Of a stretch of DNA of 24,785 nucleotides, positions 13,434 through 16,134 are shown piece after piece. The stretch is taken from positions 1-24,785 of the forward strand of contig JAHLWS010000045.1 in the NCBI GenBank assembly GCA_019057795.1, given 5' to 3'. A program made the position numbers and the translations under genes. The notes beneath the pieces are model-generated. The model was not told the DNA's origin, made no database searches, and saw only the letters and a list, made by a program, of their open reading frames with translations. The stretch comes from Promethearchaeota archaeon (GTDB taxonomy: Archaea > Asgardarchaeota > Lokiarchaeia > Sigyniarchaeales > SOKP01). Numbering within the stretch: position 1 is the stretch's first letter; each line of letters begins with the position of its first letter.

Positions 13434-14684
13434 TTAATCTCTTTGTCCTAAAACTGTGACGGAACAGACGCTAAATGCCCCACCGAGATTTTGGCATAAA
13501 CCAACCTTAGCATCGGGAACCTGTCTCCCCTCAGCTCGTCCTTGAAGTTGTTTGGTAATCTCTTGAAGCATGCGACAACCAGTTGATCCAATTGGATGAC
13601 CAAAAGATTTCAGTCCACCAGAAGGATTAACCGCAGTCTCCCCATCCCAATTAAATGTTCCATTCTTTAATTCCTCAGCAGCCATTCCACGATCGCAGAA
13701 TTGTAAGTCTTGACAATTTATAAGCTCAGTTATCGTGAAACAGTCGTGTACTTCGGCGGCATCGATTTCCTTTCTTGGATCTGTAATACCCGCCTCTTTA
13801 TATGCGTATTCGGCTGCTTTAACGGTCGCAGGAAAAGCTGTAAAATCCGCTCCAGGGCCGTTAGAAGGAATATACCATGGAAAATTAGTTCTACACGATA
13901 TAGCGTTTGCTTTAACTAATATATAATCGTCCGCGTGAGCATAACTTTCAGCAAGCTCTGGTGTAGTCAATATTAACGCAGCAGCTCCGTCCGACATGGC
14001 GCAGCAGTCAAAGCGACCGAGAGGGTCAGCGATCATTGGGGCTTTCATTACTTGGTCAATCGTGATCTTACTTCGAAAATGCGCTTTTGGGTGGTAAGAA
14101 CCGTTATCGTGGTTTTTAACCGCCACACGCGCTAAATCCTCTTTTGTCCAACCAAATTCGTGAAAACATCTAGTTGCTGCCATCGAAAACATAGCAGGAG
14201 CCGAAGGTAACGGTAAAACGGGGTGTCCAAATATTTTAAAGCCGGGTAAACCGCTTCCGCCCTCGTCCATGAGTCTAGAGCATATTAACAAGGTGTTAAT
14301 ATTGTTTCTCCACTCCACAGGCGAGGACTACATCGTAAGCTCCAGATGCGACGCCAAAACAAGCATTTCGCTGAATCACTATAAGTGATTTCATTTACGA
14401 AAAGCGTCCATCCCCGAAGCGCAATAGTTCTCAGTACGCGTGATAGGAATCCCATCCAATCTTAGGATATCCTCCACTAATGCACCAGACATTCCAGTGA
14501 AGTAGTAGAAGATACCGACCCATGCTGCTTCAACCTCGTCCTTTTTTATTCCCGCATCTTTAAACGCATCCCGAGAAGCTTCAAATAGCAAGTCGTATTG
14601 GTTTTTATCCCATCGTTCGCCATATTTTGTAGCGTCACAGCCAATAATGGCTACTTTATCTCTAATTCCTTTTATTTTACTCAT
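13434..14684 (-). CDS. SCP2-type acetyl-CoA acyltransferase (thiolase), 396 aa, in three exons: 14684-14395, 14365-14306, 14274-13434
   Basis: Joined exons give 1191 nt with ...ENYCASGMDAFRNACFGVASGAYDVVLACGVEKLMDEGGSG..., catalytic Cys, AEVHDCFT, GHPIGSTG and GLCQNLGG. Strong GAGGTGA RBS; no other lesions. Confidence 0.88.
14275..14305 (-). other. Candidate bulge-helix-bulge-type mRNA intron 2 (31 nt)
   Basis: mRNA GGAG-AA|A-C(A)AUAUUAACA-CCU-UGUUAAUAUG-CUCU-AG|A-CUC. The 4-bp helix GGAG/CUCU is flanked by AAA and AGA; excision gives GAG AAA CUC AUG (E K L M). Confidence 0.75.
14366..14394 (-). other. Candidate bulge-helix-bulge-type mRNA intron 1 (29 nt)
   Basis: mRNA UCGU-AA|A-UGA(A)AUCACU-UAU-AGUGAUUCA-GCGA-AA|U-GCU. 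The 4-bp helix UCGU/GCGA is flanked by AAA and AAU; excision gives UUU CGU AAU GCU (F R N A). Confidence 0.75.
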
Positions 14685-14691
14685 TTTTTTT

Positions 14692-14698
14692 TCACCTC
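14692..14698 (-). promoter_or_regulatory. Shine-Dalgarno site GAGGTGA of the thiolase, overlapping the upstream stop codon
   Basis: TAGAGGTGA followed by an A-run and the ATG at 14684; typical archaeal anti-SD complement, implying co-transcription. Confidence 0.8.
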
Positions 14699-16134
14699 TA
14701 ATGTCTTAAGGGCCGACATTTCCAATAGTAGTTATGGAAATCAGCTCCTTCGTGTTCTTTTCTGAAAGTAAGTTCAACTTCCATCCCAATTTTTACGTTC
14801 TCTTCGGGTTTTTGGATTTCCGTCATGTTTAATAACACGCGTCCGCCACCCTCTAAATCAATTACACATCGAGGGACTGGTGTAGCTAAGTAAGCCCCTC
14901 CAACTAGATGATCTAAAGTATACGTAAAAATGGTTCCTTTGTGTGCAAGTTTAATTAGTTCAAGCTGGTCGTCTGCTCTACAAACAGCGCACGAACGCGC
15001 TGTTGTAGGATATTGAACGGTTCCACAGCTAGTGCATTTAAGGCCATACCATCTATAAACAGCGTATGTATCTCGCCACATGGTTACAGCAGAGCTTTTT
15101 CGGACATAACGATCTTTTACAAGTAATTCTTTATTTTCAACAAATACGTTGTAATTCTTCAGAGCGATCATTGATTTTTGGTGTCCTGCTACGCCCAAGT
15201 GCTTCTTTGAGAGTTCTCTTACAGCTTTTCTGTCTGTGATGTGCATTAAAATAGCATCTGCTCCATCTCCATATCCTGCCAAAATTACTTTTGCATCTTC
15301 CTTAGGTCGTTTTAAAGCAGCCATTAGTAGCATGAATGCCATCGGGGTTCCAAAATCGCCTAACTGGAAAAATAAACCGTTTTGAGCGGCTCCTTGTGGA
15401 AACTTCATCATTTTTGAGATTCTCCCGTGAACTCTAGGGTTGTTATAATAATAAGCTGCAATGTCAACTTCTTCTGGTTTTAGATCGTTCCTTTTCATAA
15501 TTTCAGTCATTACTTTCGTAATATTTTTCATGTAGAATTGATTGTCCATTTTGACTTCGAAAGTTCTTATAAATTTATCTTTGTTTGTCCGCTTCCAAGG
15601 TCCTGTTACGTTTGCCGAGATCGAATAATAATCGTCAATAATGAGCGGTAAATCGTCCCCTTCTGCTATTAATAAAGCTGCCGCGCCATCAGCGTAACCG
15701 TATTCCCACATGGTGGAAGGTTCAGGCTCTCTAGTATCAGCAGCGACAATAAGAATGCTTTTTATGTCTTTATTCGCTTTGATTGTATCAATCGCTCTAG
15801 CTAGGGCAGTAGTTCCCGATTTTAATGAATCAGTAAAATCTGCTGTTATTATACCTTCCCTTAAGTCCAATACTGTAGCAATTAAAGAAGCCGAATCTTT
15901 TTCCGTGTAGACTTGAGTAGTTGACGCGAAAAAAAGTCCATCAACGCTTTTTAGGTCGACACCTGCTAAACAATCTAACCCCGCTTCAACCGACATGGTA
16001 ATACTATCTTCGTCCGCGCTTGCAACTGCTTTTGAGCCGGGAATAGAAGGAAAATCCCATGCTTTAGCAATAAGATCGCGAGGAAGCAACCAGCGCGGTA
16101 AATACGCGCCATAACTTTTAATACCAATTGGCAT
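14698..16134 (-). CDS. HMG-CoA synthase/KAS III-like domain fused to a DUF35 (Zn-ribbon + OB-fold) domain
   Basis: GIKSYGAYLPRW, DEDSITMSVEA, G.ADGAAA, AGYGDGADA; C-terminal CTSCGTVQYP...CAVC, GTIFTYT, IGMEVELTFRK, YYWK. Confidence 0.85.
   Translation of the reverse strand: MPIGIKSYGAYLPRWLLPRDLIAKAWDFPSIPGSKAVASADEDSITMSVEAGLDCLAGVDLKSVDGLFFASTTQVYTEKDSASLIATVLDLREGIITADFTDSLKSGTTALARAIDTIKANKDIKSILIVAADTREPEPSTMWEYGYADGAAALLIAEGDDLPLIIDDYYSISANVTGPWKRTNKDKFIRTFEVKMDNQFYMKNITKVMTEIMKRNDLKPEEVDIAAYYYNNPRVHGRISKMMKFPQGAAQNGLFFQLGDFGTPMAFMLLMAALKRPKEDAKVILAGYGDGADAILMHITDRKAVRELSKKHLGVAGHQKSMIALKNYNVFVENKELLVKDRYVRKSSAVTMWRDTYAVYRWYGLKCTSCGTVQYPTTARSCAVCRADDQLELIKLAHKGTIFTYTLDHLVGGAYLATPVPRCVIDLEGGGRVLLNMTEIQKPEENVKIGMEVELTFRKEHEGADFHNYYWKCRPLRH

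What the first reader, a model, noticed from the sequence alone, without database searches (positions are those of the whole stretch)
13434..14684. Thiolase mRNA apparently carries two tiny BHB-type introns: candidate protein-coding-gene splicing in an Asgard-like archaeon
Seen: the two ORF-track pieces (97 aa and 294 aa) plus a hidden 60-nt middle exon join into one 396-aa thiolase once 29 nt and 31 nt are removed. Both inserts are AT-rich hairpins (9/29 and 9/31 GC, versus 32/60 in the middle exon) with the same architecture: a 4-bp exon/intron helix, an AAA bulge, a 9-10 bp intron stem with one bulged A near its base and a 3-nt loop. Established: archaeal splicing endonuclease EndA cuts after the 2nd nt of each 3-nt bulge around a 4-bp helix and RtcB ligates; the well-known protein-coding case is crenarchaeal cbf5. 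Applying this cut rule restores the frame at both sites independently. Inference: these are functional mRNA introns in a metabolic gene, which annotation would report as a pseudogene. The RBS, catalytic motifs and operon partner are all intact.
Basis: partly seen in the sequence, partly recalled or inferred. Interest (0 to 1): 0.95.

Follow-up and report, generated by a model that had tools for sequence, protein, structure and literature searches.

The report
tRNA-type mini-introns in Asgard thiolase gene
A conserved lipid-pathway gene of an uncultured Asgard archaeon is broken by two inserts of about 30 bases that have the shape cut by the tRNA-splicing enzyme, and comparison with relatives indicates they are removed from the messenger RNA, which the papers I searched document for only one other archaeal protein gene (cbf5).

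Summary
The acetoacetyl-CoA thiolase gene (window 14684..13434, minus strand) carries a 29-nt insert (14366-14394) and a 31-nt insert (14275-14305) around a 60-nt exon. Removing them gives an open 396-aa frame.

Each insert has this layout:
- a 4-bp exon/intron helix;
- a 3-nt AAA bulge;
- a 9-10 bp hairpin;
- the 4-nt partner strand;
- a second 3-nt bulge.

Cutting after the second base of each bulge restores the orthologous protein.

An independent DNA sample holds both inserts. The three closest relatives lack exactly these bases. More distant Promethearchaeota carry homologous inserts at the same sites, and at three further sites of this gene, with compensatory changes. The exons are under strong purifying selection (dN/dS about 0.04, the same as intron-free pairs). 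The genome encodes two EndA subunits and RtcB.

I verified like inserts in two more genes here (GH38 mannosidase, a CobO-like ATPase), and partly in the sole uL11 gene. The scan had already noted such introns on other DNA of this genome.

No RNA data covered the junctions, so splicing is inferred, not shown. Verdict: new members of the bulge-helix-bulge mRNA intron class. Confidence 0.85, interest 0.8.

The parts
14395..14684 (-). Exon 1 of the thiolase gene (ATG at 14684; ends ...UUUCGUAA), encoding residues 1-96 plus two bases of Asn97. It includes the catalytic NYCASG motif.
   Evidence: Pfam Thiolase_N. Aligns to intron-free orthologues.
14366..14394 (-). Intron 1, 29 nt. Motif parts: helix strand H1 UCGU 14397-14400 (exon), bulge AAA 14394-14396, hairpin 14372-14393, helix strand H2 GCGA 14368-14371, bulge AAU 14365-14367.
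   Evidence: Absent from G020, G005 and G009. A homologous intron in G046 has a compensatory U-A to C-G change in the helix.
14306..14365 (-). Exon 2, a 60-nt micro-exon (codon remainder plus ACFGVASGAYDVVLACGVE plus two bases of Lys).
   Evidence: Colinear with all orthologues.
14275..14305 (-). Intron 2, 31 nt. Motif parts: H1 GGAG 14308-14311 (exon), bulge AAA 14305-14307, hairpin 14281-14304, H2 CUCU 14277-14280, bulge AGA 14274-14276. Flanking exons can pair further (GAGU/ACUC).
   Evidence: The same intron is in G016 and G057, differing only in the loop. Absent from the other orthologues.
13434..14274 (-). Exon 3 (residues 118-396 and the stop), with the thiolase C-terminal domain.
   Evidence: Pfam Thiolase_C_1, 5.5e-36.
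14693..14698 (-). Ribosome-binding site GAGGTG, overlapping the stop codon of the upstream gene by one base.
   Evidence: Read from the sequence.
14698..16134 (-). Upstream operon partner: HMG-CoA synthase fused to a DUF35-type zinc-ribbon/OB domain.
   Evidence: Pfam and NCBIfam. The nearest solved thiolase is from the archaeal thiolase/HMGCS/DUF35 complex, 6ESQ.

Best explanation
The gene encodes the acetoacetyl-CoA thiolase of the archaeal mevalonate pathway, in an uncultured Promethearchaeota (Asgard, Loki-type) archaeon. It is interrupted by two bulge-helix-bulge mini-introns.

Proposed mechanism:
1. In the transcript, the last exon bases before each insert pair with four bases at the 3' end of the insert. 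This sets out a 4-bp helix with a 3-nt bulge on each strand, next to a 9-10 bp intron hairpin.
2. The host's heteromeric tRNA-splicing endonuclease EndA cuts after the second base of each bulge.
3. RtcB joins the exons and probably circularises the 29- and 31-nt introns.
4. The result is an mRNA for a 396-aa enzyme.

Shown here: the anatomy, the presence of the inserts in DNA, intron-free and intron-bearing orthologues, structure-preserving evolution, purifying selection on the exons, and presence of the enzymes.

Inferred: that cutting and joining happen in the cell, and that EndA and RtcB are the enzymes responsible.
For: 1. Anatomy and cut rule. Both inserts fit helix(4)-bulge(3)-hairpin-helix(4)-bulge(3), and the rule gives 29 and 31 nt and the protein ...AFR|NAC... 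and ...GVE|KLM....
2. Orthologues. Of the 26 genomes with a match among 42 of the genus, the three closest (92-93% nt identity outside the inserts) lack exactly these 60 nt and have open frames of 398-412 aa.
3. The same sites are occupied elsewhere. Site 1 is occupied in G046, with 9 of 29 bases changed, the hairpin kept, and the helix pair U-A replaced by C-G through a synonymous exon change. Site 2 is occupied in G016 and G057, with changes only in the loop. Three further sites (codons 92/93, 208, 299) carry 30-31 nt inserts with the same layout. At site 3, three species have three different stems.
4. At site 3 only the rule's cut restores the conserved DCCAMS. At sites 4 and 5 the placement is unique and matches the rule.
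5. With inserts removed, all 23 orthologues are open. dN/dS is 0.041-0.062 for the window's gene against its relatives, versus 0.042-0.047 among intron-free pairs. It is 0.019 between G016 (three introns) and G022 (one), which share the site-4 intron. Changes unique to the window's gene are 17 synonymous and 3 non-synonymous.
6. The introns change less than 4-fold degenerate sites of the same genes (P from 2e-11 to 0.03).
7. Machinery. There are two EndA paralogues of about 200 aa. One matches the catalytic half and the other the structural half of fused enzymes. RtcB is also present. PMC5829648 reports the (alpha-beta)2 type with the broad-specificity loop in Asgard.
8. The same kind of insert occurs in other genes of this genome, with intron-free orthologues: GH38, a CobO-like ATPase, and the only uL11 gene.
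Against: No spliced or unspliced RNA was seen; the RNA runs held only fragments of relatives and none crossed a junction.

Intron 1 has no convincing outer exon-exon helix. In the minimum-energy fold its second bulge (AAU) pairs with the UUU upstream, so it is a relaxed (HBh'-type) motif rather than a canonical one. Site 3 has only 3 of 4 helix pairs.

My structure-plus-reading-frame scan of the whole genome gave no excess over shifted-cut controls. The class is therefore sparse, and the scan cannot by itself prove a general system.

The window's two introns are absent from its three nearest relatives, so they could be recent on this lineage.
Confidence: 0.85

Rival explanations
1. The inserts are small palindromic DNA insertions (MITE-like elements or replication errors) that have inactivated the gene, so it is a pseudogene.
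For: Both inserts introduce stops or frameshifts. They are absent from the three closest relatives, so they could be recent. Short direct repeats flank them (AAATG at intron 1, AC at intron 2).
Against: Exons evolve under dN/dS of about 0.04, the same as intron-free genes. Intron-bearing genes that share an insert (G016/G022) have dN/dS 0.019 over dS 0.72.

No other copy of any of the inserts exists in the 4.95-Mb genome.

A DNA insertion model does not predict pairing between exon and insert in the exact register, nor compensatory exon/intron changes.

The sole uL11 gene carries the same kind of insert.
Confidence: 0.05
2. The inserts stay in the mRNA and are skipped by the ribosome (programmed translational bypass, as in phage T4 gene 60 or the byp elements of yeast mitochondria).
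For: Hairpin-containing gaps of about 30 nt. At intron 1 a stop (UGA) lies two codons after the break, and CGU/CGA could serve as take-off and landing codons giving the same protein.
Against: At intron 2 and at sites 4 and 5, the conserved residue is rebuilt from a codon split by the insert (AA|A, AC|U, G|AC). No matching landing codon precedes the resumed frame.

Bypass does not explain the conserved 4-bp exon/insert helix and the two 3-nt bulges.
Confidence: 0.03
3. The inserts are removed from the RNA, but by machinery other than EndA/RtcB (another nuclease/ligase pair or self-cleavage).
For: The enzymes were not tested. Intron 1 and site 3 depart from the canonical motif.
Against: The spacing rule specific to EndA (two cuts, each two bases past a 4-bp helix) predicts the excised length at all five sites. 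No known ribozyme or RNA family matches the region. 29-31 nt is too small for a known self-splicing intron (my own knowledge).
Confidence: 0.05
4. The inserts are an assembly or sequencing artefact.
For: The genome is a metagenome-assembled draft with 7.5% estimated contamination.
Against: A separately assembled contig from another sample is identical over 926 nt across both inserts. Like inserts occur at the same sites in MAGs of other species, whose records bear unrelated names.
Confidence: 0.01

Closest known systems
BHB intron in the cbf5 (pseudouridine synthase) pre-mRNA of Crenarchaeota (Watanabe 2002; Yoshinari 2006; Yokobori 2009, PMC2738675)
   Same: A short intron inside a protein-coding frame, bounded by a (often relaxed) bulge-helix-bulge motif. 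The hosts have a heteromeric splicing endonuclease. Distribution among relatives is patchy, with gain and loss.
   Different: The phylum differs (Asgard/Promethearchaeota) and the gene is a metabolic enzyme. There are two introns 60 nt apart in one gene and five occupied sites across the gene family. The size class is uniform (29-31 nt) with A-rich bulges. Several other genes of the same genome are affected. Splicing is not yet shown experimentally here, whereas it was shown for cbf5.
Non-canonical and multiple tRNA introns of Archaea, including the heavily interrupted tRNA genes of Asgard archaea (PMC4090602; preprint 10.64898/2026.10.13.758758)
   Same: Same motif, same predicted enzymes, and the same dependence on exon sequence to build half of the motif. 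The preprint likewise reports repeated gains at sites that allow the motif to form. ARAGORN finds only 18 tRNA genes in this complete genome, as expected if most are interrupted.
   Different: The host molecule is an mRNA, so the exon half of the motif must also satisfy a reading frame. The preprint does not treat protein-coding genes.
Unconventional HAC1/XBP1 mRNA splicing in eukaryotes (Ire1 cleavage, tRNA-ligase/RtcB joining)
   Same: A small intron is cut out of an mRNA at stem-loop-defined sites by a protein endonuclease, and the exons are joined by the tRNA ligase, changing the reading frame (my own knowledge).
   Different: The endonuclease (Ire1) and the recognition motif differ, and that system is regulatory and stress-induced. 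There is no evidence here for regulation.
Archaeal thiolase/HMG-CoA synthase/DUF35 complex (PDB 6ESQ)
   Same: The spliced protein aligns end to end with the 6ESQ thiolase (E 2e-62). It sits directly after an HMG-CoA synthase gene.
   Different: Here the synthase and the DUF35-type domain are fused in one 478-aa frame, and the thiolase gene is interrupted.

Membership tests
BHB (tRNA-type) intron cut by EndA and joined by RtcB | [quoted passage not shown] | tested here: met
   Intron 1: UCGU/GCGA (3 Watson-Crick pairs plus 1 G-U), bulges AAA and AAU. Intron 2: GGAG/CUCU (3 Watson-Crick pairs plus 1 G-U), bulges AAA and AGA. The register is specific.
BHB (tRNA-type) intron cut by EndA and joined by RtcB | Flanking helices h (exon-exon) and h' (intron) on either side of the motif | tested here: inconclusive
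   h' is strong in both (9-10 bp). h is plausible for intron 2 (GAGU/ACUC and further pairing). For intron 1 it is weak or absent, so that intron is of the relaxed HBh' type.
BHB (tRNA-type) intron cut by EndA and joined by RtcB | Cutting after the second bulge base at both sites gives a functional product | tested here: met
   Gives an open 396-aa frame colinear with intron-free orthologues. The same rule works at all five sites of the gene family.
BHB (tRNA-type) intron cut by EndA and joined by RtcB | Structure conserved through compensatory change among homologous introns | tested here: met
   Site 1: helix pair U-A becomes C-G. Site 3: three different stems. Sites 2 and 4: changes only in loops. 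Few sequences per site, so no formal covariation statistic.
BHB (tRNA-type) intron cut by EndA and joined by RtcB | Host encodes a splicing endonuclease able to cut relaxed motifs outside tRNA, and RtcB | tested here: met
   Two EndA paralogues (catalytic-like and structural-like) and one RtcB. Broad specificity is taken from PMC5829648 and was not tested.
BHB (tRNA-type) intron cut by EndA and joined by RtcB | Spliced RNA, or the circular or linear excised intron, observed | not testable with these tools
   The one read-laying run found no RNA contig across a junction.
Acetoacetyl-CoA thiolase of the archaeal mevalonate pathway | Family model above the curated cut-off, catalytic Cys and His motifs, adjacency to HMG-CoA synthase | tested here: met
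   The intron-free orthologue, 97-98% identical to the window's protein in the matched parts, scores 507 bits on NF004810 (cut-off 403). CASG and GHP are present. HMGCS lies upstream.
MITE or other repeated insertion element | Multiple related copies in the genome | tested here: not met
   Only self-hits for the window's two introns and the two G016 introns (sites 3 and 4) tested against G000. The one partial hit (C78:51512) is unrelated AT-rich DNA.
Programmed translational bypass (gene 60 / byp) | Matching take-off and landing codons flanking the gap | tested here: not met
   Possible at intron 1 only (CGU/CGA). Absent at intron 2 and at sites 4 and 5, where a split codon is rebuilt.

The most novel reading that the evidence does not exclude
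The 29-31 nt introns may be an actively spreading population. On this reading they enter protein-coding genes (and tRNA genes) of Promethearchaeota again and again, at sites whose exon sequence can complete a BHB motif, and they move between lineages. That would make Asgard archaea a living example of intron gain into coding sequence by a protein-only splicing system.

The best hint is the site-2 intron. It is identical but for two loop bases in three species whose host genes differ at 64% of 4-fold sites, while close relatives of each lack it.
Probability: 0.3. Interest if true: 0.9.

Novelty: new member of a known kind. Interest (0 to 1): 0.8.

Why it matters
In the papers I could search, including a 2025 review of the endonucleases, splicing of an archaeal coding sequence by the tRNA enzymes is documented only for cbf5 in Crenarchaeota.

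Here the same mechanism appears to be needed to express a mevalonate-pathway enzyme, and at least three other proteins including the only uL11, in the archaeal lineage closest to eukaryotes. Introns come and go between species.

Two practical consequences follow:
- Such genes are annotated as pseudogenes or fragments, which distorts metabolic reconstructions of Asgard MAGs.
- The patchy gains at motif-permissive sites give a tractable system for asking how introns colonise coding DNA.

Tried and rejected
- RNA evidence. The one run search found only small shares in RNA runs. Laying X15 and X17 gave fragments 90-97% alike that stop short of the junctions, with no joints. X1, the probable source, laid nothing because of the tool's filter. 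Nothing follows for or against splicing.
- De novo census of the genome. 202,845 motif-like candidates were combined with open-frame and codon-usage tests, and cuts shifted by 1-2 nt served as controls. No version gave an excess. Gene junctions and off-frame open stretches in this 31% G+C genome swamp a sparse signal. The scan also misses introns with a mismatch at the hairpin base, such as uL11 intron 2.
- Alignment with a close relative. About 200 kb of G020 aligned to G000 showed 44 indels of 12-150 nt. Only the two thiolase inserts are coding hairpins, so I did not fetch the rest of that genome.
- Search for other copies of the intron sequences found none.
- Rfam gave nothing meaningful.
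- A degenerate exon-gap-exon pattern for site 1 in genome contigs was too unspecific and returned chance bacterial hits.
- An apparent +531 nt in L126 is a partial duplicate after an intact gene, not an intron.
- Candidates C62:7153-7181 and C49:81126-81154 from my scan were fetched but not checked against relatives.

Full report
**What is there.** The minus strand of window 13434-14684 holds three pieces of one gene: a 97-aa frame, a hidden 60-nt piece and a 294-aa frame. Pfam places Thiolase_N on the first piece, and Thiolase_N plus Thiolase_C_1 on the last. Taking out 29 nt (14366-14394) and 31 nt (14275-14305) leaves 1191 nt, 396 aa and one terminal stop. The junction region reads NYCASGMDAFR|NACFGVASGAYDVVLACGVE|KLMDEGG. 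A GAGGTG ribosome-binding site lies before the ATG and overlaps the stop codon of the upstream gene.

**Anatomy of the inserts.**
- Intron 1 reads UCGU-AAA-[9-bp stem, one bulged A, loop UAU]-GCGA-AAU.
- Intron 2 reads GGAG-AAA-[10-bp stem, one bulged A, loop CCU]-CUCU-AGA.
- In both, the four exon bases pair with the four bases that end the insert. Each strand of that helix is followed by three unpaired bases.
- This is the bulge-helix-bulge arrangement of archaeal tRNA introns. The cut falls after the second bulge base. That rule follows from the canonical 37/38 site together with the description in PMC4090602 (and my own knowledge).
- The rule gives 29 and 31 nt.
- Intron 2 can also form an outer exon-exon helix. 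Intron 1 cannot convincingly, and in the minimum-energy fold its second bulge pairs with upstream U's. Intron 1 is therefore of the relaxed type.

**The inserts are real DNA.** A contig assembled from another sample of the same study covers 13560-14485 without a single difference.

**Organism and gene.**
- The window is contig C45 of a 4.95-Mb, 87-contig draft genome with 31.4% G+C.
- Its relatives are deposited as Promethearchaeota / Promethearchaeia MAGs, that is, Asgard archaea of the Loki type.
- The intron-free orthologue is 97-98% identical to the window's protein in the matched parts. It scores 507 bits on the NCBIfam acetyl-CoA acetyltransferase equivalog (cut-off 403).
- The nearest solved structure is the thiolase of the archaeal thiolase/HMG-CoA synthase/DUF35 complex, 6ESQ.
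- The gene directly upstream is an HMG-CoA synthase fused to a DUF35-type domain.
- This is therefore the entry enzyme of isoprenoid lipid synthesis.

**Comparison with relatives.** 26 of the 42 genomes of the genus have a match to the gene.
- The three closest (G020, G005, G009) lack exactly the 29 and 31 nt and have open frames.
- Site 1 is occupied again in G046. There 9 of 29 bases differ and the hairpin is kept. The outer helix pair has changed from U-A to C-G through a synonymous TTT-to-TTC change in the exon and an A-to-G change in the intron.
- Site 2 is occupied in G016 and G057 by the same intron, with two changes, both in the loop. A pattern scan of 185,579 species representatives found only these two.
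- Three further sites exist. Codon 208 is occupied in G016, G007 and G024, with three unrelated stems. Codon 299 is occupied in G016 and G022. Codon 92/93 is occupied in one further MAG.
- All of these are 30-31 nt and have the same layout.
- At codon 208 only the cut rule, not the aligner's placement, restores the conserved DCCAMS. At codons 299 and 92/93 the excision has a single possible placement, and it is the one the rule predicts.
- Over nine instances the helix has on average 3.67 of 4 pairs at the true register, against 1.1-2.2 at slid registers.

**Is the gene alive?**
- After removing the inserts, all 23 orthologues are open.
- dN/dS between the window's gene and its three close relatives is 0.041-0.062. 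Among those intron-free relatives it is 0.042-0.047.
- Changes unique to the window's lineage are 17 synonymous and 3 non-synonymous.
- G016 (three introns) and G022 (one) share the codon-299 intron and are separated by dS 0.72. Their dN/dS is 0.019.
- The introns themselves change less than 4-fold degenerate sites of their host genes.

A gene that carries such inserts has therefore stayed under full selection. This excludes a pseudogene unless the inserts are removed or skipped.

**Rival readings.**
- Ribosome bypass could explain intron 1, where CGU/CGA could serve as take-off and landing codons. It cannot explain intron 2 or the sites at codons 299 and 92/93. There a conserved residue is rebuilt from a codon split by the insert, and no matching landing codon exists.
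- The inserts are not a repeat family. None has a second copy in the genome.
- Rfam has no match.

**Machinery.**
- The genome has two EndA-family genes of 200 and 201 aa. One aligns with the catalytic half and the other with the structural half of fused endonucleases.
- It also has one RtcB gene.
- PMC5829648 reports that Asgard archaea have the (alpha-beta)2 enzyme with the loop that confers broad specificity.
- Yoshinari 2006, as cited there, tied cbf5 splicing to this enzyme type.
- ARAGORN finds only 18 tRNA genes in a genome scored 100% complete. This fits the heavy intron load of Asgard tRNA genes described in a 2026 preprint, which says nothing about mRNA.

**Other genes.** Earlier notes of this scan list like introns elsewhere in this genome. 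I tested three.
- The GH38 mannosidase insert (C65:69693-69722, inside HWDRE|WY) is present in 6 of the genomes I aligned and exactly absent from 6. The stems show compensatory changes, and the exon helix strand CGUG is found only where the intron is present.
- A CobO-like ATPase insert (C47:20781-20809, inside GRG|KGKT) is present in 11 and absent from 3.
- The only uL11 gene has a 30-nt and a 28-nt insert around a 29-nt exon. Both fit the rule with relaxed helices (by hand). I did not compare this gene with relatives.
- My own genome-wide scans gave no statistical excess over controls. About 200 kb aligned to a close relative showed only the two thiolase inserts. The class is therefore sparse, probably tens per genome (a guess).

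**What is not shown.** No RNA read or contig crossed a junction. The splicing, the enzymes responsible and the fate of the introns are inferred.

**Comparison with what is known.** The closest case is the cbf5 intron of Crenarchaeota (PMC2738675). It has the same motif class, the same enzyme type and patchy gain and loss. The differences here are:
- the phylum;
- the kind of gene;
- two introns in one gene and five sites in the gene family;
- a uniform size of about 30 nt with A-rich bulges;
- several affected genes in one genome.

I found no paper reporting such introns in Asgard protein genes.

I file these as new members of a known kind. The open and more novel question is how they spread. 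The gene tree shows the same sites occupied in distant branches and empty in close ones. The site-2 intron is nearly identical across hosts that differ at 64% of 4-fold sites. This suggests transfer or repeated gain rather than simple inheritance.

Noticed in passing
G000 C65:69693-69722 (locus L080:494-523): A 30-nt BHB-type insert with an in-frame stop splits the HWDRE|WY motif of a GH38 alpha-mannosidase. It is present in 6 and exactly absent from 6 of the relatives aligned. The stems vary with compensation, and the exon helix strand CGUG occurs only in intron-bearing alleles.
   Followed up: yes
G000 C47:20781-20809 (locus L081:482-510, minus strand): A 29-nt BHB-type insert splits the P-loop (GRG|KGKTTAALG) of a CobO-like ATPase. 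It is present in 11 aligned genomes and absent from 3. One relative shows a U-G to C-G change in the helix via a synonymous exon change.
   Followed up: yes
G000 C73:108820-108920 (minus strand; loci L192, L193): The only uL11 ribosomal protein gene is interrupted by a 30-nt and a 28-nt insert around a 29-nt exon. Both fit the cut rule with relaxed helices (GCCU/AUGU with 3 of 4 pairs; GCAU/AUGC with 4 of 4, and AAA bulges). Not compared with relatives.
   Followed up: partly
whole genome G000: ARAGORN finds only 18 tRNA genes (10 with a predicted intron) in a genome scored 100% complete, suggesting that most tRNA genes are too interrupted for a standard finder.
   Followed up: no
window 14698-16134 (minus strand): HMG-CoA synthase and the DUF35-type zinc-ribbon/OB scaffold protein, separate in the solved methanogen complex, are fused here into one 478-aa frame.
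   Followed up: partly
L124 (CAZRBD010000193.1), about 30 nt at thiolase codon 92/93: A fifth intron site in the same thiolase family, in another uncultured archaeon: GAAU-GGG-hairpin-AUUC-AAA, with a unique placement that fits the cut rule.
   Followed up: yes
L126 (JAHLWH010000201.1) 1859-2307: A partial duplicate of the 3' third of the thiolase gene lies just after the intact copy.
   Followed up: partly
G000 C62:7153-7181 and C49:81126-81154 (loci L082, L083): Two further 29-nt candidates from my scan (CCGU-UUA...GCGG-UAU splitting CPF|CG; CAUG-AAA...CAUG-AAU). Not checked against relatives.
   Followed up: no
thiolase site 2 flanks, window 14306-14330 and 14255-14274: The intron-free close relative G009 differs from the window in this 41-nt flank at only two synonymous positions. 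Both are bases that pair in the intron-bearing RNA (GGAG versus GGAA in the helix; CGAGGGC versus CGAAGGC in the outer helix). This hints that exon sequence tracks intron presence.
   Followed up: partly
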